DNA from: a virus
Lineage: Duplodnaviria > Heunggongvirae > Uroviricota > Caudoviricetes
Strand: one strand, 5' to 3'
Length of the DNA stretch: 64,000 nucleotides
Virus record (IMG/VR): IMGVR_UViG_2529292828_000009
The translations under genes and the position numbers were made by a program. The notes under the pieces are model-generated. The model saw only the letters and a program-made list of their open reading frames with translations, was not told where the DNA came from and ran no database searches. Positions 46,845 to 61,754 of this stretch are shown piece by piece. The first letter of the stretch is position 1, and the number at the start of each line of letters is the position of its first letter.

Positions 46845-46867
46845 TCCTGACATGACGCAGTTCTCCC

Positions 46868-47191
46868 TCAGTGTAAAACCGGCTTTTTGATGTGACGGAC
46901 GCATAACTCATCCATTACGGCTATTCCGAGCTGGGAGAGTGCGGGACAGGACATTAGAGGGCCGTATTCCATCAGGTCTGAAAGCAGGGCGCAGGCGATT
47001 TCCATGCCTTTTGTTTGCCCGTGCTGTCGCAGATAAAATCCTTCAAGCTCACGGGCAATAGCGGTTTCAATTTCATCCAGAGTGAGCTGCAGATGGCGGT
47101 TTTGCTGATAGCAGGCACTCAACCAGGCGCAGGCTACCGCGCGGCGATACAACGCTACCCGAAGTGAAAGGGAAAGAGTGCGTGATTTCAT
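46868..47191 (-). CDS. Hypothetical protein of the P4-like left operon
   Basis: 107 aa ORF directly upstream of alpha. Confidence 0.4.
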
Positions 47192-47412
47192 TGCACCACC
47201 TCCATGTTCATGAGGTCATCCTGGCAACGCTGTACCACGCCATCAAGCTGCTCTGTCATCAGATAAATCAGGGAAACCAGTTGTTCACATTGAGCACTGG
47301 CAGGTTTTTCGTAGCAATCCTGAAGAACAGCCATTCCAGTGACAAACTCTCCCACGTTACGAAGATGCTTCAGGCGGAGAATATCGTCATAAGAGATTGC
47401 GGCGTGATTCAT
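47188..47412 (-). CDS. Hypothetical small protein (position equivalent to P4 epsilon; start at internal Met)
   Basis: ORF between immunity region and alpha operon. Confidence 0.35.
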
Positions 47413-47599
47413 TAGATCACCTCCCGGACAGGCAGGCGAGCAGCAAGACAAAGCACATACTCATGGACCAGTGAAAGACGTGCATGATGCTCATTGCTGG
47501 CGATGATACGCAGCATACTGATACGTGGTTTACGTTCTGCACGACGAACGGCGGCAAAAACAAATATAAATTGAGGATGTGACGGGGCGAGGATCGTAG

Positions 47600-47870
47600 C
47601 CATAAGGGCAACCTCCAATAAGTAGCGGTAAATGCCACCACCGGAGTTCCTACGCTCATGGGTGGTGACCCGAACGGGGGTAGGAATACCGGCCTTATTG
47701 GAAACCGGCCAGCCCGAAGGCTGCCCCGCCCGGACCACCATTATCTGAAAGGGGCTAAGGTATAAGCACCGCAGCCCGAAAAATGGGTGTGCCTGAGCAA
47801 CGACGTAAAAAAAGACGCACGGCGCGTCTGGTGTCGCCAATAAGTAACTCGGGTTCCTACGCCCGGCAGC
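47600..47870 (-). ncRNA. Candidate P4-type CI-like immunity RNA region
   Basis: Two direct copies of CCAATAAGTA...GGNGTTCCTACGC (~47615-47655, ~47837-47862) flank a complementary segment GGGGGTAGGAATACCGGCCTTATTGG (~47676-47702); hairpin + T-run on minus strand at ~47796-47828. Confidence 0.4.
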
Positions 47871-47956
47871 CGATTTTGCGGCAGCGGGAAAACTATACCT
47901 GGAAAAGATATCAGGACGCAAGCCAGAAAAAAGGAGATGAGACTGCAAAGCAAGTT

Positions 47957-48217
47957 TCACGCATGGCCTCCTTGCTCGCGGGCAGCAATTCGCGCCGCCA
48001 TCCATGCACTGACCTCCGACTGTACCCAGGCCACATTTTTTCCACCCAGGGATATCTGCTGCGGGAAGGCATCGCGGCTGATAAGGTCGTAGATGGTTGA
48101 ACGGGATAGCCCGCAAAGGTGCATCACTTCAGGTAATCGTATGAAGCGCTCCTGCTGAGCCGGAACCGGGAGCACCGGAGCAGCTGGTGCCGGGGTGGAA
48201 ACGGAAATACTATTCAT
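47957..48217 (-). CDS. AlpA-family transcriptional regulator
   Basis: 86 aa; [23 protein letters not shown] typical of AlpA. Confidence 0.8.
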
Positions 48218-48860
48218 CTGGCTACCTCTCTAATATGTTTACAACAGTCCGGGCAATTCCATGCGGATTCAGGTAGCTCCTTATTATGTTTATATAAGCG
48301 GCTCGCGCATGCTTTATTTATTTTGTGTGAAATGTTGATTTCTCAAAAAATAAAACAGCTAAAAACCGTATGAAACGAACAAAAACAAACAATTCCTTTA
48401 TGGAATATAATAAGGAGCATCAATAATAAAAAAGTCTATTACACTAGGCAGGATCACAGCTCAAATCTGAACCAGCCCATATCATTCAGGGCTTTACATC
48501 ATAAGCACTAAGACAACACCTGATTAATAAAAGAGCCAAAAACGGCCAAAAATAAACAGCTCACCATATGTATCAATAAATCCGATGATTAAAGAAATTA
48601 AATTACCATCTTACTTCCGCATGTATCCGAATGTGTTTAATGAACATCAGACAAATTCATTTTTATGAATATTTTCCTGAAATGCAACTGAGTGCAGGGA
48701 GGTTGAATGTTCAATTATTAAACAGATATAAGACATCTTTTATTCTTTACATAGAATATGTATTGAATACTGGTGAATATTGGTGAGGAGAAAAGATCCA
48801 GTAATAAACTGAAATAAATATCGCGACTTATATGAAAAAGAAATATATGTTTAATTTTAT

Positions 48861-48970
48861 CTCTGTGAACAGTCATGAACAGTAGATGATCACTTTAATT
48901 AAAACACTACACCACTTAACCACATGTATTTACTATATTTTTATTGAAGTGAACAGTAGTGAATAGTATG
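48861..48970. repeat. Cluster of GTGAACAG-like octamer repeats (candidate alpha-binding iterons)
   Basis: gtgaacag / atgaacag / gtgaacag / gtgaatag within ~110 bp of AT-rich intergenic DNA. Confidence 0.35.
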
Positions 48971-49122
48971 TATTAAAGGAAGCGTGTAGATCAGACATGA
49001 CACCTTTCTCTGGCTAGCCAGAACAAGGTCATTGTTCAGTCACTGACACAATCCTCCTCGGTAGTGCGCTTGTATGGACCCCGGCACAATTGACACAACA
49101 ACAAAACACTACCGGAGCAGCC

Positions 49123-49875
49123 ATGACAACTGTTAACCAGATCTCTGATGCAAACATTACCCCCACCCTCCCGCCGAAAATTCGCGAAGCGGTGGAAAAA
49201 GTTAAGGCAGCAAAAGCTGTCTGGCAGGAAGAACGGCGAAAACAAACCGAAGCTGCTGCAATGACTGAAACTATCCGTAAACGTCAGGAAGATACAAAAA
49301 CGGAGACGCAGGCGCTTAATGATGAATGGCGAAACCTGTTTCGTGAGAATCAGGGGAATATGACGCCACGAATGAAAAAACTGCGGGCAGAAATCGCCCT
49401 CGGACGCGAAACACTAGATGAGTTCGAAGATTTGCTGGCTGCTCAGGCTGCAGAAAATGAATTCCTGCCATGGAAAACTGCGGATGCTGCAAACCGCTAC
49501 ATCAGCGAACATAATCACCTGATTGAAACTCATGCAGTGTGGCTCTGGAATGAGTTTATGAAGGAACACGGCCAGAAACTTATTCAGATCCTTGGACTGC
49601 TGAAAATGACTCTGGGCCGAAGCGCATCTTCTGTTATCGGTGTAGTTCATACCGTAAACGACCCCGAAAGTGTGCTGAAGCAATTTATCAGCGAGCAACT
49701 CACCACTCCGGCACTGTTCTGTAACGTATCTTCAACGGATGATATTGCCCTGCCGGGGATCAGCATTTATGCGGACGATAAAGCCATACAGGATGCCAGA
49801 CAATCACCCAGCCCTGCAGCACGTTCCCGGATGCTTAAACAGCGTGACATGGCTAAAGGGGGCGAGAAGGAATGA
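49123..49875 (+). CDS. Sid-like capsid size-determination protein (putative)
   Basis: Coiled-coil-rich ORF directly upstream of psu; GGAG RBS before internal ATG. Confidence 0.5.
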   Translation: MTTVNQISDANITPTLPPKIREAVEKVKAAKAVWQEERRKQTEAAAMTETIRKRQEDTKTETQALNDEWRNLFRENQGNMTPRMKKLRAEIALGRETLDEFEDLLAAQAAENEFLPWKTADAANRYISEHNHLIETHAVWLWNEFMKEHGQKLIQILGLLKMTLGRSASSVIGVVHTVNDPESVLKQFISEQLTTPALFCNVSSTDDIALPGISIYADDKAIQDARQSPSPAARSRMLKQRDMAKGGEKE

Positions 49876-50426
49876 ATACCGGAACCATTACTCAGGAAGC
49901 TCTCAACGATTACCGCGCGGCAATAAAAAGCTGGCTGACACTACGTAATGTGCAAAGTACCAGCCAGCTTCGTCTGGCTGCTTTGCTGGATACTGAAGAA
50001 AAACCCGCAGCATATGCCAGCCAACTTGAGGATCTTCGTGAGCGTCTTGCACTCCTCGAATGGCAGATTAACTGTGCCGCCCGGGATGGTCTTTATGCTC
50101 ACCAGATTGTGCTGGAAAGCTGTGTTACAAGCGCAACTGAAAACTTCATGAGCGAGCATGGTGATGCACTCACTGACGCTCTGGCTCCTTTTCTTTGTGC
50201 ACCATACGGGCTTGAGGCGGCAATGAAAATATTACGAACCGCTGTAGCCCGACAAACGGAAGTCCGTACTCCGGTAATTTCAGCAGCATATAAGAGCATT
50301 ATCGACGAAACCGGATTAACGGTGGATGCATCAATGCGCGCTGATGCTTCAGCCAGTTTCACCCCGGCACAACATAAAGTTTTCCTGGCCCGCCTTAACC
50401 GACTTAATGAAAAAGGAGTGTGCTGA
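49872..50426 (+). CDS. psu: Polarity suppression protein Psu
   Basis: 184 aa; segments resemble P4 Psu as recalled (FTPAQ..., HGxAL..ALAP). Confidence 0.75.
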   Translation: MNTGTITQEALNDYRAAIKSWLTLRNVQSTSQLRLAALLDTEEKPAAYASQLEDLRERLALLEWQINCAARDGLYAHQIVLESCVTSATENFMSEHGDALTDALAPFLCAPYGLEAAMKILRTAVARQTEVRTPVISAAYKSIIDETGLTVDASMRADASASFTPAQHKVFLARLNRLNEKGVC

Positions 50427-50427
50427 T

Positions 50428-50700
50428 ATGGCCCTGAAGTGTCCTGAATGTGGCGCGGTCGCTCACGCCAGAACCAGCGCCTATGAAGCTCCGTCGGTTA
50501 AACGCTCATGGTATCAGTGCCAGAATCTGGAATGTTCCTGCACATTTACCGCACTGGAAAGCGTGGATACGATAATTATGAAGCCTCGGTGCAATGAACA
50601 GGAATCAGACAAAGCAAAAATACCGGAAAAACAACAGCAAACTCTCAATCGCTATGGCTCCGCGTCAAAGCTGTCAAACCGTCAGCAAATTCCTGTCTGA
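50428..50700 (+). CDS. Ogr/Delta-family zinc-finger late transcription activator
   Basis: CPECGAVAHARTS...YQCQNLECSCTF pattern as in P2 Ogr. Confidence 0.8.
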   Translation: MALKCPECGAVAHARTSAYEAPSVKRSWYQCQNLECSCTFTALESVDTIIMKPRCNEQESDKAKIPEKQQQTLNRYGSASKLSNRQQIPV

Positions 50701-50723
50701 TTAGCAAAATACGACCACGAAGT

Positions 50724-50747
50724 CCCGGTCCAGTACCGGGATTTTTT
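50724..50747 (+). terminator. Rho-independent terminator after delta
   Basis: CCCGGT-loop-ACCGGG hairpin followed by T-run. Confidence 0.5.
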
Positions 50748-50791
50748 ACGCCTTTTCCCTGGCTGGCCTGAGAGCGTATGAGTGCATATCT

Positions 50792-50830
50792 ATGGCGCAT
50801 GAAAACGCATGAGTCTCATGCGCCATTTTT
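50792..50830 (+). terminator. Second hairpin + T-run
   Basis: 11-bp stem ATGGCGCATGA/TCATGCGCCAT followed by TTTTT. Confidence 0.4.
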
Positions 50831-51306
50831 GACGCGAAAGCCCTTGTGTGGTGGCTTCTGAGACGATTTACGGGGTGCATGAAAACCAGTCTGTTAAGCG
50901 AAGCTGGCAGGCGGGCGGGGCTGCTCGCGCTAAGGGAGAAAATAGCAAACTCAGCCGCGCAGGCGGTGACAATGATTGACGAGATACTGGCTGGCAGTTG
51001 CTGAAATCTCCGCAATGATTCAAGAACTGCAGTGTATCGATGCAGCACACGTAAACTGAGCGGCGCTACGGGTAATATTTATAGATTTGTCATCCTTAGT
51101 GAGCATGGTTCTCACTCTTGTAACCTCTACCTGTACAAGATATCGTAAGACCTCAGATCAAACATGCACGTGTATTAAAGGTGGGCAAGCGTGGCGGGAA
51201 GATAATTGTGCGCACTGTAGTCAAAGATAGGGATTGTGATTACTTTTTCTTCCAGCCGTGGTGTAGTAAATTATTGGGAACAAACTCTTAATGACATCAA
51301 TGGATA

Positions 51307-52605
51307 ATGATTATGACTACAAATCCGGACGGATACATCTCATTTTTAAAACCCGGTAGTAACGACTGGAAAGCATTAGATAGTAAATCGTTTATTTATT
51401 GGCGAGACTACATAACGAATGAAAGTTTAGAAGAGTCAGGAGATTCTATTTCTCCAGCACAATCTCTTACTGATGGTGAAAAGAAGGAGTTGAAAGACAA
51501 TCAGGCATATATAAACGAACTATTACTAAAATCATTACAATTCCCAAATCTTGCATTCTTCGCTGGGAGTGGTACTTCGCTTGGGGACGTTGGAGGACCA
51601 AGCATGTGGGATCTCTGGAAGTGTGCAATGTGGAGTGAATCTTCTATAAACGAGGATGGTCAATTAAAACCTGATGCTCAAATTGTTTGTGATAAAGTAA
51701 AATATAAAGAGCGAGAGTATCCTAACATAGAACACTTTCTTTCTAATTGTGAAGCATATTTAGCATTTCATGATGATGAAGAAGTGTTGAATTTTTTAAA
51801 TAAAGTTAAAACAATTATTTTAGACAAATGTCGCTCATTTATTGATGATGGCAACTGTGATCTTTCAGCTTACATCAATTTATTACAAAAAATGGGGAGG
51901 AGGAGAGTCAGAGATCCTAGACTAAAAGTTTTCACAACTAACTATGATTTAGCCTTTGAAACAGCTGCTTCTGAATTAGGAATGATGGTAGTTGATGGTC
52001 TTTCATATACAGGAGTTCGCAGATTCGATGGTAAATATTTTAACTACGATGTTGTTAAAAGAGATGAAAACGAGCATGAGTTTGTAGAGGGCGTATTCCA
52101 GTTATTTAAACTCCACGGTTCTGTAAGTTGGATAAGAAAGGATGGGCAAATATATGAATCCAGCCAACCAACAGCAACAAACGCATGTCTAATATATCCA
52201 GCGAAAGGTAAATATCAGCAAGCCTTTATTCAACCTCACTTAGAATTACTTTCAAGATTGTTAGATTTCTTGAGAAAAAGAAATAACTGTTTAGTTATAT
52301 CTGGATTTGGTTTCAATGATGACCATCTTTCTGAACCAATTTACTCAGCAATAAAATCCAATCCAAGCATGAGGTTGATTATAGTAGATTTCAAATGTGC
52401 AACTCATATTCGGAATAAAGGGGGGGACGGTTCTAGTAAATATTGGGATTTACTAAAACAACTCTCACTATCAGGTTATGACATTCACTTCATAAATGCA
52501 TCTTTCAGTGATTTTGTTAAATTAGTTCCCAATCTTAAAGCATTAACCCCAGCAGAACAGTTGGCTAAGGTAATAAAACAAGTAGGAGTTAACAATCAAT
52601 TATGA
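51307..52605 (+). CDS. SIR2-like NADase domain protein (candidate anti-phage effector)
   Basis: Motifs FFAGSGTS...GPSMW, TTNYD and KLHGS resemble SIR2-family NAD-binding/catalytic motifs. Confidence 0.75.
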   Translation: MIMTTNPDGYISFLKPGSNDWKALDSKSFIYWRDYITNESLEESGDSISPAQSLTDGEKKELKDNQAYINELLLKSLQFPNLAFFAGSGTSLGDVGGPSMWDLWKCAMWSESSINEDGQLKPDAQIVCDKVKYKEREYPNIEHFLSNCEAYLAFHDDEEVLNFLNKVKTIILDKCRSFIDDGNCDLSAYINLLQKMGRRRVRDPRLKVFTTNYDLAFETAASELGMMVVDGLSYTGVRRFDGKYFNYDVVKRDENEHEFVEGVFQLFKLHGSVSWIRKDGQIYESSQPTATNACLIYPAKGKYQQAFIQPHLELLSRLLDFLRKRNNCLVISGFGFNDDHLSEPIYSAIKSNPSMRLIIVDFKCATHIRNKGGDGSSKYWDLLKQLSLSGYDIHFINASFSDFVKLVPNLKALTPAEQLAKVIKQVGVNNQL

Positions 52606-54323
52606 TTAATACAACACTACAGCTTGGTATTTTGAGGGGCGACCTTAAGGTTGGAGTAGTCTCATCAATTTTTGCTCAAACAGTTAGAGCAAATTTAATC
52701 TATGCAGGGGAACTCAGCGGAACATATATAGAAGGTTGTAGATATGGAAAAGGAGAAGTTGGTGAAATATTATTAATAGAAGGACAACAATCTATTGTTC
52801 TTGGCCGTTTAATAGAGGTTAAATTACCAGAGCGAGATAGAGGTGAAATATCTGTCGGGTCTCAAGGAAACTTCAAAGTTGATGCTATCGGCATTATACA
52901 ACTTCTTGGAACTATTGATCCTTCAAATTTTAGAATTGATTCAGGAATCAAATCATATCCTCGATTAGGAGATCGAGTTTATTCTGCTCCCTTAGATTTT
53001 ATTTCTTTAATACCAGAATTAATTAATAAAGGAATTAAAGATAACGAGGAAGAAAGAATAGGTATTGTATTAGGCATTATATCTGGAGGGGCAACAAGTA
53101 TAGTAACTGTTGAACCTGATAAACTCTTCGGTCGTCATTGTGCTATCTTAGGAGCTACAGGCGGTGGAAAAAGTTGGACAACTTCCAAGTTAATTGAAGA
53201 GTGTTCGAATTACGAAAACTCTAAAACTATAATAATTGATGCAACCAGTGAGTATAGATCGTTTAAATCTGATTATTGTTTACATTACCATTTAGGTGCC
53301 CCAATAAATAAAAACATAAATTCTTTAGAATTTAGAATTCCACCTACCGACTTTGTTGAGTCAGACTTTATTGCCATGTTCGATCCTTCTGGAAAAGTAC
53401 AGGGTCCTAAGCTAAAAGAAGCGATAAAAAGCCTTAGATTAGTAGCTTTAGAACCTAGAATAGCAACCGATGGTATTTTAAAAAAAATCAATCAACCTAA
53501 AACAGATTATCGACGCGCAATGAATACTGGAGACAACTCTAAACTTGTTGATAATCCATCACAACCATTTGATATAACAAAACTTATAAAACAGATTGTA
53601 CAAGAATGTTGTTACGATAATGGAGATAATACTTGGGGAAACGCTGCAACTCAAGACTTAAGCTATTGCTCATCTTTGTTAACCAGAATTCAAGCAGTAA
53701 CGTATGCCAACTCGTTAAGGTCTGTTTTTAATAGTAACGAGGATATATCCACACTAGGTGAAATATTAGAAACTTTTTTACAATCTGATAAACGAGTCCT
53801 AAGGTTATGCCTAAGTGATGTTAGCTATGAGTTTTATGCTAGAGAAATTTTAGCCAATGTAATCGGCAGAAAACTTTTAACTTTAGCTAGGCTTGAAAAA
53901 TTCAGAACAAGACCGCTGTTAGTTATTGTTGATGAAGCCCATAACTTCCTTGGCAAACGGGTTGGTTCTGAAGATCATGCAATTAAACTTGACGCTTTTG
54001 AGATGATTGCAAAAGAAGGCAGGAAATATGGCCTTAATATATGCTTAACAACTCAAAGACCCAGAGATATCACTGAAGGTGTGCTTAGTCAAATTGGAAC
54101 CTTATTGGTTCATCGCTTAACAAACGACCGAGATCGAGAAGTCGTTGAGCGTGCATGCGGTGAAATTGATAAATCTGCAGCATCTTTTCTACCAAGTCTC
54201 AAACAAGGTGAAGTTGCTCTTGTAGGGGTTGACTTCCCTATTCCTATGACCATCCAGATAGATAAGCCAATATATCCACCAGAATCTGATTCTCCAGGCT
54301 ATTGCAATATATGGAAAAAATAA
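52602..54323 (+). CDS. HerA/FtsK-like ATPase (partner of SIR2-like protein)
   Basis: Walker A GATGGGKS, Walker B LLVIVDEAHNF; start overlaps upstream stop (ATGA). Confidence 0.75.
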   Translation: MINTTLQLGILRGDLKVGVVSSIFAQTVRANLIYAGELSGTYIEGCRYGKGEVGEILLIEGQQSIVLGRLIEVKLPERDRGEISVGSQGNFKVDAIGIIQLLGTIDPSNFRIDSGIKSYPRLGDRVYSAPLDFISLIPELINKGIKDNEEERIGIVLGIISGGATSIVTVEPDKLFGRHCAILGATGGGKSWTTSKLIEECSNYENSKTIIIDATSEYRSFKSDYCLHYHLGAPINKNINSLEFRIPPTDFVESDFIAMFDPSGKVQGPKLKEAIKSLRLVALEPRIATDGILKKINQPKTDYRRAMNTGDNSKLVDNPSQPFDITKLIKQIVQECCYDNGDNTWGNAATQDLSYCSSLLTRIQAVTYANSLRSVFNSNEDISTLGEILETFLQSDKRVLRLCLSDVSYEFYAREILANVIGRKLLTLARLEKFRTRPLLVIVDEAHNFLGKRVGSEDHAIKLDAFEMIAKEGRKYGLNICLTTQRPRDITEGVLSQIGTLLVHRLTNDRDREVVERACGEIDKSAASFLPSLKQGEVALVGVDFPIPMTIQIDKPIYPPESDSPGYCNIWKK

Positions 54324-54326
54324 TTA

Positions 54327-54346
54327 GTAGGGTCTTTGACCCTACT
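54327..54346. terminator. Bidirectional hairpin terminator between convergent HerA-like gene and int
   Basis: GTAGGGTC-TTTG-GACCCTAC with T-rich flanks on both strands. Confidence 0.45.
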
Positions 54347-54361
54347 TTAAAATTTTTAAAG

Positions 54362-55633
54362 CTAGATAGTTTTTTTTGCAAAGTCGTAGGGGGTTATATA
54401 TTCCTGAGTGTTAGCATCAAGATAATCGGCCCACCACTGAACCATTAAACGACGCTCATCCAAATGCTCTGAAGTATGAATATAAGCAGCCCTAACGCTA
54501 TTACGCTCAGAGTGGCTTAGCTGACGTTCTATCGCGTCATCACTCCACAACCCTGATTCGCCCAAAGCACCGCGCGCCATAGTTCTGAATCCATGCCCGC
54601 AAACTTCGGTTTTTGTGTCATACCCCATTGTGCGCAAAGCACTGTTAACCGTGTTTTCACTCATAACTTTAGTTGCGTCATGATCTCCCGGAAACAGTAG
54701 CTCTTTATCACCACTAATCTGCTTAAGCTGCTCTAACAAAATCATCGCCTGCCGACTAAGCGGAACGATATGCTCCTCTTTCATCTTCATCCCACGGTAC
54801 GAGTAACGGACACCTTTAATTTCTTCTCGTTTTGCCGGTATACGCCAAAGAGATTTATCGAAGTCGAATTCATCCCAGCGAGCGAAACGCAACTCACTGG
54901 AACGCACAAAAGTTAGTAAGGAAAGCTCGACTGCAATCCGTGTCATTAAACGGCCACGATATGCAGCAAGACGTGCAAGAAACTCAGGGAAACGGTTAGA
55001 GGGTAAAGCTGGATAGTGTCGTGCTTTGGTTGTCGATAAAGCACCAGCCATATCACTGGCTGGGTTTGAGTCGATATAATCGTTCTGTACGGCATAACGC
55101 ATAATAGCTGTAACACGCTGCTGAAGACGCTGCGCGACGTCATGCTTACCACTGGCATCAACTTTTTTAATCGGGGCTAACAGGTGGCTTGTTTTAAGCT
55201 GGCGGATATCGGACGATCCGATATGAGGGAAGATATAAAGCTCAAGATAGCGAAGAACGCGCGCTCTATGGTCTTCACTCCAGCGCTTGTTACTGGCATG
55301 CCATTCACGAGCGATCGTTTCGAAAGTATATGCCCCCGATTTCTCGGCCTGAGCCGCTTTCTGCTCGGCTTTTGGATCAATACCCTGCACTAATAATCTT
55401 TTAGCTTCATCACGTTTTGCCCTTGCCTGGGCAAGTGTCACAGTAGGCCAAACGCCAAAAGCGAGGCGATCCTCTTTTTTGTCTGAAGGGCGTCTGTATT
55501 TCATACGCCAGTATTTAGATCCCTTGGCCGAAACCTCAAGATACAAACCGCCACCATCGGCCATTTTGTAGGTTTTGTCTTTTGGCTTTGCGGTCTCGAC
55601 CAGTCTGGCGTTGAGCTTCATTTGGGGGCACAT
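54362..55633 (-). CDS. P4-type tyrosine integrase
   Basis: 423 aa; C-terminal R...H..R...Y catalytic pattern; adjacent to att repeat. Confidence 0.9.
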   Translation of the reverse strand: MCPQMKLNARLVETAKPKDKTYKMADGGGLYLEVSAKGSKYWRMKYRRPSDKKEDRLAFGVWPTVTLAQARAKRDEAKRLLVQGIDPKAEQKAAQAEKSGAYTFETIAREWHASNKRWSEDHRARVLRYLELYIFPHIGSSDIRQLKTSHLLAPIKKVDASGKHDVAQRLQQRVTAIMRYAVQNDYIDSNPASDMAGALSTTKARHYPALPSNRFPEFLARLAAYRGRLMTRIAVELSLLTFVRSSELRFARWDEFDFDKSLWRIPAKREEIKGVRYSYRGMKMKEEHIVPLSRQAMILLEQLKQISGDKELLFPGDHDATKVMSENTVNSALRTMGYDTKTEVCGHGFRTMARGALGESGLWSDDAIERQLSHSERNSVRAAYIHTSEHLDERRLMVQWWADYLDANTQEYITPYDFAKKTI

Positions 55634-55808: not shown

Positions 55809-56155
55809 ATCGCAACTATCCTTATGATCTTTAGTAATTAAAGCAATCTACATTGTCGATGATACCATCATTGATACCATCAGACCCGATTGATGATAAT
55901 CGAACAGTAATAAAATATGACTAAACAATTTATGCTTCAACATAAGATTGAATGCTTTGATCTACCATTTTAATGCAGTGGAAAAATTTTTAACACAATA
56001 CTTAAGAAAAATAATTTCATATAAAAACTACATTTCATTTCATATAGTTAACACACCAAAAACAACTGTATATAAACCCAGTAAAAAATGGTAGAATCAC
56101 TATTGTGTTCAATTGTTGAACATTTATAATACATTTGTCGGATAGGGGGGTGTTT

Positions 56156-56743
56156 ATGCAAAGGAACACATACAACAAAGTAGGTCTATACATCCTATCT
56201 TTAGCTATGCTTTTTGTTTTTATTATTATCCTGACTGCCAAAATCCCCTTTTGCTTCACTTCGGATTGTAGCTTCATAGGTTTGAAGAGACTTGTATTAA
56301 CAAATATTGTTCCTATTGTTTGCTTTGTATTTTTTCTATTTAGTATTTATTTTTATAATAGATTAAAAAACATAACAAAATACAATGGACAAGATAGCGT
56401 TAAAATAACATCATGTCAAAGCGAAAGCTATGAAAGTTTAACATTCTTAGCAACATACATTGTACCTTTTATGGGGTTTAGTTTTGAAGACATGCAAAAG
56501 AATATAGCATATCTTTTGCTTGTAGTAGTAATAGGCATTATTTTTATTAAAACAGACAAGTATTATGCGAATCCAACTTTAGCTCTGTTTGGCTTTAAAC
56601 TATACAGGGTAAATATACTACACCCAGGAAGTGGAGAAACAAAAAATCTGATAGCTATTTCAAATGATGTATTAAAAGTGGACGATAATGTTTATTATAG
56701 TTTCTTTGATGAATTTGTTTTTATAGCAAGGAAAAAAATATGA
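56156..56743 (+). CDS. Four-TM membrane protein, KwaA-like (putative Kiwa component)
   Basis: Four hydrophobic helices; GGGGGG RBS before ATG; ATGA overlap with downstream gene. Confidence 0.45.
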   Translation: MQRNTYNKVGLYILSLAMLFVFIIILTAKIPFCFTSDCSFIGLKRLVLTNIVPIVCFVFFLFSIYFYNRLKNITKYNGQDSVKITSCQSESYESLTFLATYIVPFMGFSFEDMQKNIAYLLLVVVIGIIFIKTDKYYANPTLALFGFKLYRVNILHPGSGETKNLIAISNDVLKVDDNVYYSFFDEFVFIARKKI

Positions 56744-57687
56744 CTACTCAGCAGTTAAAAGAAAAAATTTCAAAAATAATTGATAACTTTAGCGGAATCA
56801 GGGTTGTATTTACTACTACTGCTAATGAACTAAAGCTTTCCAGAATTGAAGGGAGTGCATTAAATAGCATAGCTGAAGGGTTTATTGACAAAATCAAAGA
56901 AGACATTATAAATAATGAAGATCTCACCTCACCATTGCTGTCCAATTTTGATGATAGAAAAAATGCCTTGTTTAAATTTGATTACGAACAATATCCTGAA
57001 GAATTTAACAAAATCACTCAGGCCATCGCTATCCCTCCTAACTCACAAGATTATTATAACCCTTTAAATAAATTCACAGATGTGAAAGGAATTATAATTT
57101 TAATAAGTGGAGATAACAAATGCCTGGCTCTTTATAAAAACAAAACTAACCTTGCAGTATTGAGAAATAGCAGAAAAATGTTTAATTTAGTCCCTGACCC
57201 TGATGGATACTTGAAACAACTCCCTAATGAGATATTACGGTTAGATTTCAATTATGATCTATTATCAATTGGTGAGGATTTTTACATTAAAAATCACAAG
57301 ACTCTTGAAACTCAAATGAAATTTCATCAAGTGATTGAAGCCCAGGCAGTTATTGCTTTAAATTCTTTACGGGATTCACTACTAATTGAAGACATATCAG
57401 GTTTAGAAAAGAGTTCGAGAGAAATTTCATTCGCTAGAAAGTTGGCAAAAATCTCCAAACATTCTCCTGTTTTGGGGAAAATAGATACTAAAACAATTAT
57501 CGATTATGTATCCCAACATAAATATTTATCTGCAATACTTCAGATTAATGAAGCAGGAAATAAGTTATTAATTAAAACCAAGACATCACAGAAGCATTTC
57601 ATTAAACTCATGAGCGATGATTATTTACAATCAGATCTAACTAAAATAATATACATGAGCATAGCAAAAGACAGATTAGATGAATAG
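56740..57687 (+). CDS. Soluble ~315 aa protein, KwaB-like (putative Kiwa component)
   Basis: Size and operon architecture match Kiwa; no motif verified. Confidence 0.4.
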   Translation: MTTQQLKEKISKIIDNFSGIRVVFTTTANELKLSRIEGSALNSIAEGFIDKIKEDIINNEDLTSPLLSNFDDRKNALFKFDYEQYPEEFNKITQAIAIPPNSQDYYNPLNKFTDVKGIIILISGDNKCLALYKNKTNLAVLRNSRKMFNLVPDPDGYLKQLPNEILRLDFNYDLLSIGEDFYIKNHKTLETQMKFHQVIEAQAVIALNSLRDSLLIEDISGLEKSSREISFARKLAKISKHSPVLGKIDTKTIIDYVSQHKYLSAILQINEAGNKLLIKTKTSQKHFIKLMSDDYLQSDLTKIIYMSIAKDRLDE

Positions 57688-57700
57688 AATTTTAAGTAGA

Positions 57701-57745
57701 AGTGACAAATATTATAAACCATTCTTGAAATATATTTGTCACTAT
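57701..57745. terminator. Inverted repeat between convergent genes (bidirectional terminator candidate)
   Basis: GTGACAAATAT ... ATATTTGTCAC. Confidence 0.35.
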
Positions 57746-57751
57746 TACTAA

Positions 57752-58423
57752 TCATTCGCGTGCTTGATTATTTATGCTGGATGTTCTAATTGTTGCCGAA
57801 TGCCAATACCCACCACTATATGTTCTTGCTATAGTAATAAATCCAGTACAGGTAATTACTGTCATTAAAATCAGGAAAATATAATAGAAATTAAGCGGAG
57901 CTTTCAAATCAAAAGGAGGTAACGAATACACCAGCAACCCTATCCATACAATAGTTATAAATAAACTAATAATTTGGTTTATCTTAGATACTGATATTGG
58001 AGATGGACCAGTAAGTAAATGAACCGAAAACTCTTTTATTCCTTTCGGTTTTGCACGAGATAACACCACTTTATATAGTGGACCATTAATATTATCTTCT
58101 AACATATCGACATGTTTTTCCCAGTTTCCCTGCCAATATTTACTACCACGGTTAACACAGAGCCAACCGAATGAAAATACAATTCCCAGTGAACACAGTA
58201 ATACGGATAAATCTGTCTTAGCTGTAGAAGAGGAAGTCTGTATAGCAACAAAACCAGCTAAAGTTGCCGCTATAAAAGTCCAGAAATAAGTTGCTCTTTT
58301 CCAGTAATGGTCTATCTCATATTTCCGTATATCTAAAGCCTGTAGCAGAGCATTCTTATTACAGTCTCTATCATTAAGAAAACGGCTACGATATTCCTCA
58401 TCTGAAAATGGAGTAATTGGCAT
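57752..58423 (-). CDS. Four-TM membrane protein co-oriented downstream of the RM fusion gene
   Basis: 223 aa; four hydrophobic helices. Confidence 0.55.
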   Translation of the reverse strand: MPITPFSDEEYRSRFLNDRDCNKNALLQALDIRKYEIDHYWKRATYFWTFIAATLAGFVAIQTSSSTAKTDLSVLLCSLGIVFSFGWLCVNRGSKYWQGNWEKHVDMLEDNINGPLYKVVLSRAKPKGIKEFSVHLLTGPSPISVSKINQIISLFITIVWIGLLVYSLPPFDLKAPLNFYYIFLILMTVITCTGFITIARTYSGGYWHSATIRTSSINNQARE

Positions 58424-58475
58424 ATTGATTTACCTCTATTTATAATAGTAAAAGAGGGGTCCCCCCCCCTCTTTT

Positions 58476-61400
58476 TTAGTTATTTTTAAACAAAACCTTT
58501 ACTATTCCATCTATATCCCTTAGGAAACTCTCGAAAGAGGATCTATTAGCCTTAGCTTCATGAGCCTTTTTTGAAAGTTCAGACAGCTCACGATGCTTTT
58601 TATTACCTTCATCATAAAGAGGAACATTAATTGGAGGTCTGATTTTAAAAGTTCTGCTATCACTGGACTTCAGAATGTACTCCCCAGTGATTGATGAGTT
58701 AAAAATAGCACAAATGTAATGTGCCTCATCCAGGGTAATAAATTTACCATCTTGCCTCTGAGATATACTCACAGCATGGTTCTGAAATAAAGGTCTCTTT
58801 TTGTCACCCCATGGAGTATCCATTTGACTCACAACTGCTGCTGCCCATTTAGTGTTATCACGAAAACAAACAAAATGATCACCATAAGTATATTCACCTA
58901 CACGAGCCAATGCGTAAAATGCAGTAATATTGCTTTTACCTATGATTTTGTCATTGTATCGAGTCTGCGACTCTAATAACTGTTTATTATTAATGAAATA
59001 GTCAGCCAACATAGGGCTTTCTTTAACAAGCTCATCTACAGGTATCGGTTTACGACTCAATTCTCTATATGGAAAGGGTACGAAGAACTCAACATCTTTT
59101 ACCCCAAAAGGTTCAATATTTGTTCCTTTAATCAGGGGGTATATATGCTTGGTTTCAGCAAAAATCATTTGTTTTGCCACTTTATACTTAGACTTGCCAC
59201 CCTGATAATTTTCAAAAATTGCAGTGTTGTTAGCTTTTTTTGTCTTAAATTTCCATAAGAATAATTCTTGAGGGAAAAATTCAATCCCTTCCCTGCCATG
59301 ATATTCGCAATATCCACTGATATTTCTGTAATCATTGAGTTTTTCGGAATCTGAAGCATATGTAAAGGCTGTATTGCTTACACTAACAGTGCCAGCGATC
59401 TCTTTACGGATAGAGAACTCATGCGAAATAGCATTAAAATGCGTATGCTGTGAGTAGCTATCAAGGCTTCTTCCGGTTTTATTTTTCGTCAAAAATGTTA
59501 AAGGTATCCCTTTTAAATAATCGACATTTTTTGACGAGAATAAATAAGTCGCAAACTTGATTGTAACAGGCTTGAATGGATGCCCGGATTCACTCCAGTC
59601 GTATACCTCTTGGAGATATAGTTTTTGGTTATCCCCAAAGTTAAACTCTCGAAATCCTTCATATGTTTGCTGGAAAAGGATATTTTGAGGCATAAGGAAT
59701 GCCAATATGCCATCTTTCTCTAACCAGTTTTCAGCAGATACATTAGAAATTAATGCACAAATGTTAAGGTTTATACCACCAGTAAGCCTATCACCAGAAA
59801 ATAGGCTCCTACTTAAGCATAAGCCTTTAATTCGTTCTCGATATCCTGCAGGTAAATTTTTCCAGTCAATCCATGGTGGATTACCAACAACCATATTAAA
59901 TTTGCCTAAGTTTGCAGTGGTCAAAAAATTAGTGACTATTCTAGCCCAAATTCCATTCCAGTCTCTTTCTTCTAGTTCGACAAACTTATCTGATAAAGTT
60001 TTTAATTTTTCATAAATGCTAGGAGAACTACTAATATCCCCACTTACTTCGATTAATTTTGCAAAAACACTATCACGATCTCGAAGTTTAATATATCGTT
60101 CAATATCAACAATTGCTTTTGAGAACTTATGAGAATCACTCAAAGCTTGAGTAGGCATCTCGATATAAATCGAGCCTTGCAAAGTATTTATTTCGTATCG
60201 CAAACAGTCAATGCCATCAATTATGACCTTTTCTGGAACATACGATGCGTCACCAAGATAAATTGGAATTTCAACTTCGCTACCTTCATCAAGCAAATGT
60301 GATATATTGATGAAATAGTTGATTCTTGCAGTTAAAGCTGCAAGAGGATTTAAATCAATACCTTTGACAGATGTTATGACATCTTTTAATTTAGCTTTGC
60401 TATCAGTATGAGTACGACTCAGAACTTTACCTATTAATGTAATTATAAAGGTTCCGCTACCACAACATGGATCAATTGCAGTCCAGTTGTTCTTATTTAC
60501 AACATGCTCTTCAGCAGAGGATATCAAATGCTCTGCAAGCCATTCAGGAGTGTAAAATTCTCCAAGAGAATGTCTTACTTTATCAGGAATAATGTTCATG
60601 TATAGATCTTTGAAAAGATCGTATACTTTTTCACCCTCTTTGAAAAGGTTTCCTTCCTCATATTCACTTAGTAATGAAAATATATTTTTAATACTAATGA
60701 ATATATCATCTCCCCATTGTTCCTTAGTACAATACCAAGAGAAAAAGTCACCTTCCAGCAGGTTCAAAATCCCATACTTCCTGAAAATAGCACCTTCTTC
60801 TAATGTGTATAAATAGTTTCTCATTGATTCAGAGTTACTATTGATCATATCTGAAAAATTATAATCATTTTCAAATACAAGTCCAGATAATGTTTTATAA
60901 GCTATTATTTTTACAATAATCGCATATGCAGTCTGGAGAGCATAAAGAACTTTATATTCATCATCGTTAGTAAGTAACCTATGACCAGCAATATCTTCAA
61001 GTGATAACTTTCGTTCTAAAATTGCTGTTTGCTGAGATTTATCATCATGTGCAAGTCTAAATAGCTCCTTCCATTCGTTGAAGAGCATTTGAGAGCGGCC
61101 CGTCATGTTATTTTCAAGAGCCGAAAGAAGATTACCTATTAATTGAGTTGTTAAAGATGGAGATCCATAGCAAAAATCATCAACGATGTTTTTTGGATGC
61201 AATGCCTTCTTATTCAAAAGAACTAAAAGCCCGCAAATTTTTTTAATTGCATTCTTATCAAGCGGTTGCAACTTTGATGTTAAAATGCCATCAGTATCAC
61301 GAATAAGGTAATTAATACCGTCTGTTAGCACTCCAACATAGCGTTGATTCCCTTCTAACTTTAAAGAATCAAGGTAAGCCTGGATTTGAAGCACAGCCTT

Positions 61401-61754
61401 ATTAATATCATTATCTTTTTTTAATTTCTCTCTATGCTTAAACTCTATTACTAAAGATCCAATACGACTATCGATACGCCCCTTACTGTTGCTTCTGCCG
61501 GTCGTGTTGTATTTAATACCATCAATAAAAATTTCTTTTTCGGGACGGTAATCAATACCAATGAAATCTTTAATGAAAGGAATAAAAGCAAGGTCGAAAC
61601 CAGAAACAACTTCTGCTTCATTTTTGGCTAAATATGAGGACTCATTAATTTTTTTAGATATAATATCAGCAGCTAAAAGAAAATCTGAGTCAGTAACAAT
61701 CTTTTCTTGAGCTTTGAACTTAATTTTTTTTTGAATTTCTTCTAACACAGCCAT
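58476..61754 (-). CDS. Type IIG-like restriction-modification fusion enzyme (N-terminal PD-(D/E)xK-like nuclease + N6-adenine methyltransferase)
   Basis: EFYTPEWLAEHL, motif I DPCCGSGTFI, motif IV GNPPWIDW; N-terminal D...EFK; ~470 aa C-terminal region as target-recognition domain. Confidence 0.7.
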   Translation of the reverse strand: MAVLEEIQKKIKFKAQEKIVTDSDFLLAADIISKKINESSYLAKNEAEVVSGFDLAFIPFIKDFIGIDYRPEKEIFIDGIKYNTTGRSNSKGRIDSRIGSLVIEFKHREKLKKDNDINKAVLQIQAYLDSLKLEGNQRYVGVLTDGINYLIRDTDGILTSKLQPLDKNAIKKICGLLVLLNKKALHPKNIVDDFCYGSPSLTTQLIGNLLSALENNMTGRSQMLFNEWKELFRLAHDDKSQQTAILERKLSLEDIAGHRLLTNDDEYKVLYALQTAYAIIVKIIAYKTLSGLVFENDYNFSDMINSNSESMRNYLYTLEEGAIFRKYGILNLLEGDFFSWYCTKEQWGDDIFISIKNIFSLLSEYEEGNLFKEGEKVYDLFKDLYMNIIPDKVRHSLGEFYTPEWLAEHLISSAEEHVVNKNNWTAIDPCCGSGTFIITLIGKVLSRTHTDSKAKLKDVITSVKGIDLNPLAALTARINYFINISHLLDEGSEVEIPIYLGDASYVPEKVIIDGIDCLRYEINTLQGSIYIEMPTQALSDSHKFSKAIVDIERYIKLRDRDSVFAKLIEVSGDISSSPSIYEKLKTLSDKFVELEERDWNGIWARIVTNFLTTANLGKFNMVVGNPPWIDWKNLPAGYRERIKGLCLSRSLFSGDRLTGGINLNICALISNVSAENWLEKDGILAFLMPQNILFQQTYEGFREFNFGDNQKLYLQEVYDWSESGHPFKPVTIKFATYLFSSKNVDYLKGIPLTFLTKNKTGRSLDSYSQHTHFNAISHEFSIRKEIAGTVSVSNTAFTYASDSEKLNDYRNISGYCEYHGREGIEFFPQELFLWKFKTKKANNTAIFENYQGGKSKYKVAKQMIFAETKHIYPLIKGTNIEPFGVKDVEFFVPFPYRELSRKPIPVDELVKESPMLADYFINNKQLLESQTRYNDKIIGKSNITAFYALARVGEYTYGDHFVCFRDNTKWAAAVVSQMDTPWGDKKRPLFQNHAVSISQRQDGKFITLDEAHYICAIFNSSITGEYILKSSDSRTFKIRPPINVPLYDEGNKKHRELSELSKKAHEAKANRSSFESFLRDIDGIVKVLFKNN

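What the first reader, a model, noticed from the sequence alone, without database searches (positions are those of the whole stretch)
57752..58423. Four-TM membrane protein co-transcribed downstream of the RM fusion
A 223 aa protein with four predicted TM helices and no enzymatic motif lies 52 bp downstream of, and co-oriented with, the RM gene. The pairing of an RM enzyme with a small membrane protein is unusual and could be an accessory abortive-infection component, or an unrelated neighbour.
Basis: inference. Interest (0 to 1): 0.55.

Follow-up and report, generated by a model that had tools for sequence, protein, structure and literature searches.

The report
RipA-family membrane gene beside restriction enzyme
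The small four-helix membrane protein is a real gene of a widespread, strongly conserved but functionally unstudied family (RipA/8xMP) that travels through defence islands and integron cassettes as a self-contained gene, so it is probably not a dedicated subunit of the restriction enzyme next to it.

Summary
The ORF at 57752..58423 (-) is real: 223 aa, 52 bp downstream of and co-oriented with an intact type IIG restriction-modification gene. It has four hydrophobic helices, N- and C-termini predicted inside. It is not an orphan. It matches Pfam PF24838 "8xMP, octameric membrane protein family" (E 1e-39), and RefSeq calls near-identical E. coli genes "RipA family octameric membrane protein". 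The family has about 2,770 clusters and a near-invariant cytoplasmic face across phyla. It has no solved structure, no defence-database model and no paper that I could find.

The link to restriction enzymes is real but local. In enterobacterial relatives, ripA always follows a type IIG-like cassette, either fused or split into methylase plus specificity subunit, with or without Kiwa. However, a crossover lies inside ripA, and a perfect 10-bp terminator-like hairpin fills the gap. Across about 70 diverse genomes only about 5 have a methyltransferase upstream, and no partner family recurs on either side. In Vibrio parahaemolyticus, ripA is a single-gene integron cassette.

Best reading: an autonomous island cargo gene, possibly a membrane-acting defence or abortive-infection protein. 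The function is inferred, not shown. Interest is moderate.

The parts
57752..58423 (-). ripA: 223-aa RipA/8xMP-family inner-membrane protein with 4 TM helices and a conserved cytoplasmic N-terminal helix and cytoplasmic loop
   Evidence: ORF. Pfam PF24838, E 1.3e-39. PGAP name on 98%-identical E. coli genes. Alignments. AF2 model. Hydropathy.
58433..58437 (-). Shine-Dalgarno-like AGAGG, 9 nt before the ripA ATG
   Evidence: Read directly from the sequence.
58450..58475 (-). Perfect 10-bp inverted repeat AAAAGAGGGG/CCCCTCTTTT with a 6-nt loop. It starts 1 nt after the RM stop codon and looks like an intrinsic terminator in both directions.
   Evidence: Terminator scan. RNA fold -17.4 kcal/mol, z -2.4. 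Inverted-repeat search. A hairpin plus T-run is kept with a different sequence in L095 and with a changed loop in BA22372.
58476..61754 (-). Type IIG restriction-modification fusion enzyme (1092 aa), the upstream co-oriented neighbour
   Evidence: PADLOC REase_MTase_IIG, E 2e-156. Pfam Eco57I and N6_Mtase. Nuclease and MTase motifs.
57687..57757 (.). 26-nt imperfect inverted repeat (81% complementary, 19-nt spacer) spanning the convergent stop codons of kwaB and ripA. It could be a shared bidirectional terminator.
56135..57687 (+). kwaA-kwaB (Kiwa defence system), convergent with ripA. This is context only, not a partner.
   Evidence: NCBIfam KwaA E 1e-55 and KwaB E 1e-73. PADLOC. Kiwa is absent from L095, L103-106 and all diverse RipA loci.

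Best explanation
The gene encodes a member of the RipA/8xMP family. This is a small inner-membrane protein with four transmembrane helices. Its most conserved parts are an N-terminal cytoplasmic helix and a roughly 55-residue cytoplasmic loop, both lying at the membrane surface. The family name says it assembles into a homo-octamer.

In this genome it is an autonomous cargo gene of a mobilisable defence island. It sits between Kiwa and a type IIG restriction enzyme. It is separated from the restriction gene by a terminator-like hairpin and is exchanged by recombination independently of either neighbour.

Proposed function (inferred, not shown): it acts at the membrane as a self-contained phage-exclusion or abortive-infection module. 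The conserved cytoplasmic face would sense a signal of infection, and the oligomeric ring would alter membrane permeability or block genome entry. It would add to, rather than form part of, the DNA-cutting systems it so often sits behind.
For: SHOWN:
- Family membership (PGAP name).
- Topology and conserved cytoplasmic residues R33 E36 Y40 W41 R43 S94 W97 Q98 N100 W101 E102 H104 E109 K118 S144 N149 across phyla.
- No obligate partner. No neighbour family recurs in about 70 diverse genome loci, and no IIG or Kiwa homologue lies beside distant RipA genes.
- The V. parahaemolyticus copy is a single-gene integron cassette bounded by attC-like repeats.
- A crossover lies inside ripA between the two enterobacterial cassette types.
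- A hairpin lies in the RM-ripA gap.

SUPPORT FOR A DEFENCE OR MOBILE-ELEMENT ROLE:
- Every E. coli copy (6 of 5,426 complete genomes) lies on an integrase-bearing island.
- The local neighbours are SIR2-HerA, Kiwa and a IIG RM.
- Elsewhere, neighbours include a C5-MTase RM, type I RM, AAA_15/21 ATPases (with HNH in B. thuringiensis), SIR2-STAND, Mrr, and HEPN plus M78/DUF4411. This is far more defence-like genes than the rough 1% I would expect for random genes (my estimate; no control set was run).
- One cluster fuses 8xMP to TPR repeats, a typical sensor module.
Against: - No experiment or publication on this family's role in phage defence was found. It has no PADLOC, NCBIfam or PHROGs model.
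- Most family members lie among housekeeping genes, for example directly after thiC in three Acidobacteriota.
- Sequence conservation is unusually high for a defence protein.
- No sigma-70-like promoter for ripA was detected in the gap or in the 3' end of the RM gene, so ripA may depend on read-through from the RM gene.
- All close enterobacterial relatives do keep a IIG-type cassette upstream.
- The octamer and any pore activity are taken from the family name, not tested here.
Confidence: 0.45

Rival explanations
1. RM-coupled accessory. RipA is co-expressed with the type IIG enzyme by read-through of a leaky hairpin. It acts as a membrane effector or guard that kills or depolarises the cell when restriction is overwhelmed or inhibited. 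Alternatively it holds the enzyme at the site of DNA entry. This would resemble PrrC embedded in the EcoprrI locus.
For: - The genes are co-oriented with a 52-bp gap, and no separate promoter was detected.
- All four enterobacterial arrangements keep a IIG-type cassette directly upstream, with or without Kiwa and down to 69% RipA identity.
- Distant homologues sit co-oriented behind a C5-MTase RM (L017), a type I hsdM-hsdR (L092, overlapping by 50 nt), AAA_15/21 ATPases and a SIR2-STAND protein.
- Defence-like genes are commoner upstream (about 9 loci) than downstream (about 3-4).
Against: - The partners are unrelated to each other. About 85% of diverse loci have no defence gene upstream.
- The single-gene integron cassette shows the gene is kept on its own.
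- RipA and RM phylogenies disagree. Window RipA residues 29-223 are 98% identical to the copy linked to the other RM, but only 87% identical to the copy linked to the same RM.
- A hairpin with a U-run follows the RM stop codon and is conserved in L095.
- The upstream/downstream asymmetry is weak: my rough binomial estimate for 9 versus 4 loci is p of about 0.1-0.3 depending on tails, computed by hand and not by a tool.
Confidence: 0.2
2. Non-defence envelope function. Like Francisella RipA, the protein would modulate membrane or lipid A homeostasis (LpxA interaction) or pH and ion balance, and it merely hitch-hikes on mobile elements.
For: - The PGAP family name is RipA.
- Francisella RipA is described as a homo-oligomeric cytoplasmic-membrane protein with two essential cytoplasmic domains that interacts with LpxA (PMC4322802, PMC4688374, PMC12444477). 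This matches the topology found here.
- The very high conservation and the many loci among housekeeping genes suit a general cellular role.
- No phage copies were found, and only 21 of 2.9 million viral contigs carry a homologue.
Against:
- The family is patchy: 6 of 5,426 E. coli genomes, and always on islands there.
- An integron cassette and defence-island positions are not expected for a core envelope factor.
- E. coli grows normally without it.
Confidence: 0.2
3. Third component of the adjacent Kiwa system.
For: ripA is convergent with kwaB at a 64-bp distance, with a shared inverted repeat. Every Kiwa copy of this type seen here has ripA next to it: the window, L001-L003, L093, L094 and L110.
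Against: - RipA occurs without Kiwa in L095, L103-106, MB06233 and all of the roughly 75 diverse loci.
- The genes are convergent, so they are not one operon.
- RipA matches no KwaA model.
- From my own knowledge, Kiwa was originally cloned from E. coli O55:H7 RM12579 (locus L003) as kwaA-kwaB alone and was active.
Confidence: 0.03

Closest known systems
Pfam PF24838 '8xMP, octameric membrane protein family' / RefSeq-PGAP 'RipA family octameric membrane protein'
   Same: The protein is a direct member (135.6 bits against a cut-off of 30, covering residues 27-168). Near-identical E. coli genes already carry the PGAP name.
   Different: The sequence does not differ from the family. However, the family itself has no solved structure in the PDB copy, no defence annotation and no paper in the held library. 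Membership therefore gives a name, not a function.
Francisella tularensis RipA (FTL_1914/FTT_0181c)
   Same: It is a small homo-oligomeric cytoplasmic-membrane protein with two functionally essential cytoplasmic domains (PMC4322802). Here the N-terminal helix and the loop at residues 91-147 are the conserved cytoplasmic parts.
   Different: In Francisella it is a core gene needed for intracellular growth and linked to LpxA. Here the gene is rare island cargo. It is about 18 kDa in Francisella against 25 kDa here. Sequence homology was not tested, so this link is a lead based on the shared name and not a result.
PrrC anticodon nuclease within the EcoprrI type Ic restriction locus (an RM-guarded abortive-infection effector)
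   Same: An extra non-RM gene lies inside or next to a restriction cassette and could act as a back-up when restriction fails.
   Different: PrrC is a soluble ATPase-nuclease physically held by EcoprrI and sits between hsd genes. RipA is a membrane protein after a hairpin, has many unrelated neighbours, and also occurs alone.
Small oligomeric membrane effectors of defence systems: RexB (lambda RexAB), KwaA (Kiwa), SLATT-domain proteins, Csx28 (octameric pore of type VI CRISPR)
   Same: These are short multi-TM or TM-anchored proteins in defence loci, thought to act by changing membrane permeability as oligomers.
   Different: No detectable sequence relationship: there was no PADLOC hit, including the KwaA models, and SLATT_5 matched only 1 of 46 members at E 0.039. 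Each of those effectors has a dedicated sensor partner, whereas RipA has none that is conserved.

Membership tests
RipA / 8xMP (Pfam PF24838) | Match to the family HMM above the curated gathering score | tested here: met
   135.6 bits against a cut-off of 30, E 1.3e-39, residues 27-168 against profile positions 5-135 of 136. All 46 diverse homologues also match.
RipA / 8xMP (Pfam PF24838) | Conserved core: N-terminal amphipathic helix (ALDIRKFEIxxYWKRAxYFW), TM1, TM2, the cytoplasmic motif NRGSKxWQxNWExHVDxLE, GPLYK, and SVSKINQ before TM3 | tested here: met
   All motifs are present, and 24 columns are invariant over 46 sequences from several phyla.
RipA / 8xMP (Pfam PF24838) | Homo-octameric assembly in the membrane | not testable with these tools
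   Only a monomer model could be made. No solved relative was found.
Francisella RipA orthologue group | Sequence homology to FTL_1914 | not tested
   The Francisella sequence was not obtainable. The AlphaFold database libraries were unavailable, and the papers held give no sequence.
Dedicated restriction-modification accessory subunit | Co-occurrence with the RM partner across the family | tested here: not met
   Among 121 upstream (-1/-2) genes from about 70 diverse genome loci, N6_Mtase matched 3, C5 methylase 2 and Methylase_S 2. The window's IIG homologue lies beside RipA only in L001, L095, L110 and L112. Co-occurrence is met only within the enterobacterial clade.
Dedicated restriction-modification accessory subunit | Single transcription unit with the RM gene | tested here: inconclusive
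   There is a perfect 10-bp hairpin followed by UUUU in the 52-bp gap, but no sigma-70-like promoter for ripA was found. RNA data are needed.
Dedicated restriction-modification accessory subunit | Congruent evolution with the RM partner | tested here: not met
   Window RipA residues 29-223 are 98% identical to the copy behind the unrelated split cassette, and 87% identical to the copy behind the same IIG enzyme. The crossover lies at about codon 28.
Kiwa (KwaA/KwaB) | Homology to KwaA or KwaB, or constant co-occurrence with them | tested here: not met
   No KwaA or KwaB model is matched. Kiwa is absent from L095, L103-106, L211 and all diverse loci.
SLATT (2TM effector) superfamily | Match to a SLATT/DUF4231 profile | tested here: not met
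   Only 1 of 46 members touches SLATT_5, at E 0.039. One UniRef entry names a homologue DUF4231, which remains a weak lead.
Known anti-phage systems (PADLOC-DB 2.0) and phage protein families (PHROGs) | Match to any model | tested here: not met
   There were 0 families at E <= 0.01 in PADLOC and 0 at E <= 0.1 in PHROGs. tblastn found no match in 50,697 phage records.
Integron gene cassette (for the family, not this copy) | A single ORF bounded by attC-type repeats inside a cassette array | tested here: met
   In V. parahaemolyticus locus L004, ripA lies at 8001-8660 between repeat copies at 7829-7964 and 8654-8779, within an array of at least 8 copies. The window copy is not in an integron.

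The most novel reading that the evidence does not exclude
RipA/8xMP is an unrecognised, widespread single-gene membrane immunity module. It would be an oligomeric ring whose conserved cytoplasmic face detects infection, or the failure of a nucleic-acid-targeting system. It is repeatedly placed at the 3' end of unrelated defence operons (type IIG, type I and type II RM, OLD-family ATPases, SIR2-STAND) as a generic second-line abortive-infection add-on.
Probability: 0.25. Interest if true: 0.7.

Novelty: new member of a known kind. Interest (0 to 1): 0.38.

Why it matters
If RipA proteins do act in phage defence, they would be a new single-gene membrane system. The family is found from Proteobacteria to Bacillota and Acidobacteriota, is carried by integron cassettes and mobilisable islands, and sits beside the canonical Kiwa locus of E. 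coli O55:H7, where it has gone unnoticed.

It would also be a test case for how membrane effectors are layered behind restriction enzymes. If the family instead has an envelope-homeostasis role like Francisella RipA, the finding is ordinary. It then mainly warns against reading operon-like adjacency in defence islands as functional coupling.

Tried and rejected
1. Literature. Searches for '8xMP', 'octameric membrane protein', 'PF24838', and RipA combined with anti-phage, restriction, octamer, phage, Francisella, cryo-EM or RipB returned only RIPA buffer, mycobacterial and Ralstonia RipA, and the pneumococcal RipAB toxin-antitoxin system. The pneumococcal paper describes a DnaN-targeting toxin and never mentions a membrane. 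No source for the family name was found.

3. Conserved partner. All-against-all clustering of the genes within five positions on either side of ripA in 86 of the 92 loci held then, Pfam and PADLOC scans of the two upstream genes and a Pfam scan of the two downstream genes gave no recurrent partner. The largest cluster was ThiC in Acidobacteriota, which reflects lineage synteny.

4. Kiwa third component: rejected (see the rival explanations).

5. Phage or plasmid origin: no match in 50,697 phage records, 7 of 72,556 plasmids, and 21 of 2.9 million viral contigs.

6. SLATT relationship: not supported.

7. Fusion partners. Of the 10 longest family representatives, only one has a recognisable extra domain, TPR. 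The others are probably unannotated extensions or wrong start codons.

8. Co-segregation of the N-terminal 28 residues with the RM type as an adaptor region: rejected. The two copies behind the split cassette share only 50% identity there.

Full report
OBSERVATION. An AGAGG ribosome-binding site lies 9 nt upstream. The upstream gene 58476..61754 (-) is co-oriented, and the gap is 52 bp. That gene is an intact type IIG restriction-modification fusion. It matches PADLOC REase_MTase_IIG at E 2e-156 and Pfam Eco57I and N6_Mtase. It has a PD..ExK-type motif at residues 92-106, motif I DPCCGSGTF and motif IV NPPW.

The small protein has four hydrophobic segments at 44-62, 71-90, 149-167 and 179-198. 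These coincide with helices in an AlphaFold2 monomer model (mean pLDDT 76). Basic residues are concentrated in the N-terminus, the 91-147 loop and the C-terminus. This fits a topology with both ends and the large loop in the cytoplasm.

WHAT IT IS. It is not an orphan. It matches Pfam PF24838, '8xMP, octameric membrane protein family', at 135.6 bits against a cut-off of 30. RefSeq names the 98%-identical gene of E. coli BA22372 and the 95%-identical gene of strain 602354 'RipA family octameric membrane protein'. It has no NCBIfam, PADLOC or PHROGs model.

The family is large. One search found at least 1,449 homologues. An exhaustive profile search of 1.84 billion representatives found 2,770 clusters at 50% identity (670 at E <= 1e-30), nearly all 200-260 aa stand-alone proteins. 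Members occur in Proteobacteria, Desulfobacterota, Acidobacteriota, Planctomycetota, Bacteroidota and Bacillota.

Conservation is striking. Across 46 diverse sequences, 24 columns are invariant. They lie almost entirely on the predicted cytoplasmic face: R33 E36 Y40 W41 R43 before TM1; S94 W97 Q98 N100 W101 E102 H104 E109 after TM2; K118; and S144 N149 before TM3. The first 25 residues, TM4 and the tail vary.

SURROUNDINGS. The window is E. coli chromosome (fim operon, nanC, nanM). From 44.5 to 55.6 kb lies a P4-like satellite. It carries the alpha primase-helicase, Ash, Sid/Psu, Delta and a P4-type integrase. Its psu-int hotspot holds a SIR2-HerA defence pair.

To the right follow kwaA-kwaB (Kiwa), ripA, the IIG gene and toxin-antitoxin-like genes. 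In E. coli BA22372 and 602354 the same right-hand block sits directly after the nan genes, without the satellite. There it continues into a relaxase and three tyrosine recombinases, which makes it a mobilisable island.

ripA is convergent with kwaB across a 64-bp gap. A 26-nt imperfect inverted repeat spans both stop codons.

IS IT COUPLED TO THE RESTRICTION ENZYME? Evidence for coupling comes from the four arrangements found among close relatives. All have a type IIG-like cassette directly upstream:
- (a) window, BA22372 and L110: IIG - ripA - Kiwa.
- (b) L095: IIG (92% identical) - ripA (86%), without Kiwa.
- (c) E. coli 602354, three O55:H7 strains and Salmonella: a 686-aa methylase-containing protein plus a 370-aa protein resembling type IIG C-terminal regions and type I specificity subunits, then ripA (93%) - Kiwa.
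- (d) L103-106: the same split cassette (methylase 90%, specificity subunit 62%) - ripA (69%) - integrase, without Kiwa.

Further away, RipA homologues lie co-oriented just after several other modules:
- a C5-methylase type II pair (L017);
- type I hsdM-hsdR (L092);
- AAA_15/21 ATPases (L047, L052, L077, and with an HNH nuclease on B. thuringiensis pMC429);
- a SIR2-STAND protein (L091).

Evidence against coupling is stronger:
- The RipA and RM histories disagree. Window RipA residues 29-223 are 98% identical to the copy in arrangement (c) but only 87% identical to the copy in (b). Residues 1-28 show the reverse (57% against 82%). A crossover therefore lies inside ripA, and the nucleotide homology with (c) breaks at about 58361.
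- The 52-bp gap is almost filled by a perfect 10-bp hairpin, AAAAGAGGGG-N6-CCCCTCTTTT (58450..58475), at -17.4 kcal/mol. A hairpin plus T-run is kept, with a different sequence, in L095.
- Among 121 upstream genes (positions -1 and -2) from about 70 diverse genome loci, only 3 carry N6_Mtase, 2 carry a C5 methylase and 4-5 carry AAA_15/21. The rest are housekeeping genes.
- The 126 downstream genes show no family in more than two loci, and all-against-all clustering finds no recurrent partner.
- None of the diverse loci has the window's IIG enzyme or Kiwa.
- In V. parahaemolyticus, ripA is a single-gene cassette of the chromosomal integron, bounded by attC-like repeats. Several marine metagenome loci look the same.
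- The sixth E. coli genome with a family member (MB06233) has it in a mutS-adjacent integrase island with no RM.

One point cuts the other way. The consensus scan finds no sigma-70-like promoter for ripA between 58424 and 58700. Read-through from the RM gene therefore cannot be excluded, and co-transcription stays undecided.

HOW IT PROBABLY WORKS. Shown: the protein is a membrane protein of a conserved family, it moves and recombines as its own unit, and it tends to sit in integrase-bearing islands and cassette arrays. It often, but not usually, lies behind DNA-targeting defence genes.

Inferred: it is an autonomous module acting at the inner membrane. The invariant cytoplasmic face would be the functional or sensing surface, and the oligomeric ring would be the effector. 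It would give phage exclusion or abortive infection on its own. The single TPR fusion fits a sensor-plus-effector logic. I give this 0.45.

The rivals are:
- The RM-coupled guard model, 0.2. It is attractive because of the consistent 3' position, but the partners are unrelated and most loci have none.
- A non-defence envelope role like Francisella RipA, 0.2. It is supported by the high conservation and the many housekeeping contexts.
- A Kiwa third component, 0.03.
The remainder is for something not considered.

COMPARISON AND NOVELTY. The gene is a clear member of PF24838/RipA and is already annotated as such in RefSeq. I file it as a new member of a known kind, but of a family whose function is unknown. 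It works, at most by analogy, like RexB, KwaA, SLATT proteins or Csx28. It is not a member of any of those families.

VERDICT. Interest is 0.38. The most novel reading not excluded is a widespread, unrecognised membrane immunity gene that is repeatedly appended to nucleic-acid-targeting systems. I give that a probability of about 0.25, and an interest of about 0.7 if true.

Noticed in passing
window 44520..55633: A P4-like satellite: alpha primase-helicase 44520..46904(-), Ash 47412..48116(-), Sid/Psu-like 49090..49875(+), Psu 49872..50426(+), Delta/Ogr 50326..50700(+) and a P4-type integrase 54362..55633(-). Its psu-int hotspot carries a SIR2 (51307..52605) plus HerA (52602..54323) defence pair. 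The satellite is absent from the otherwise syntenic E. coli BA22372 and 602354 loci. No tRNA gene is present in the window.
   Followed up: partly
window 56135..57687: A complete Kiwa system (kwaA, kwaB), 99% identical to that of E. coli O55:H7 RM12579. From my own knowledge, that is the strain from which Kiwa was first described. Its unannotated neighbour there ('hypothetical protein' WP_001122580.1) is the RipA homologue.
   Followed up: partly
window 58340..58423 (ripA codons 1-28): A recombination breakpoint inside ripA. The 5' end travels with the IIG cassette (82% identical to L095). The rest travels with the Kiwa side (98% identical to E. coli 602354). ripA therefore acts as a homology anchor for swapping RM cassettes in this island.
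   Followed up: yes
L002 12874..16039; L103 1418..4586: The alternative cassette upstream of ripA is a two-gene unit. It has a 686-689-aa protein with a long N-terminal region plus an N6-MTase domain, and a 370-aa protein that matches the C-terminal region of type IIG enzymes and type I specificity subunits. It looks like a split type IIG/IIB-like system. The specificity subunit diverges fast (62% identity) while the methylase is 90% identical.
   Followed up: partly
L004 5500..10500 (V. parahaemolyticus chromosome 1): A chromosomal integron array with at least 8 attC-like repeats of about 126-136 nt. ripA is one cassette. Neighbouring cassettes include a HEPN_RiboL-PSP-like protein, GNAT acetyltransferases, NUDIX, and Tai4/Imm33-like immunity proteins.
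   Followed up: partly
window 62364..63135: A DUF4160 protein (62364..62621) overlaps a 179-aa protein with a weak match to an addiction-module antidote domain (62596..63135). This is a likely toxin-antitoxin-like pair just beyond the RM gene. The 134-aa ORF at 63478..63882 has no family match.
   Followed up: no
window 58417..58446 (+ strand): A near-consensus sigma-70-like site (TTGGCA-18-TATAAT, 11 of 12) lies on the strand opposite to ripA. It overlaps the ripA start and points into the hairpin. This may be chance in AT-rich DNA, or an antisense promoter.
   Followed up: no
L054, L057, L058 (Acidobacteriota): The RipA homologue follows thiC, with the two genes overlapping by one base (gap of -1 in my ORF calls), in three genomes. 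This housekeeping-type synteny contrasts with the island contexts elsewhere.
   Followed up: no
P0218 (566 aa, metagenomic representative): The only domain fusion found among the 10 longest family representatives scanned: N-terminal 8xMP followed by TPR_10/TPR_12 repeats.
   Followed up: partly
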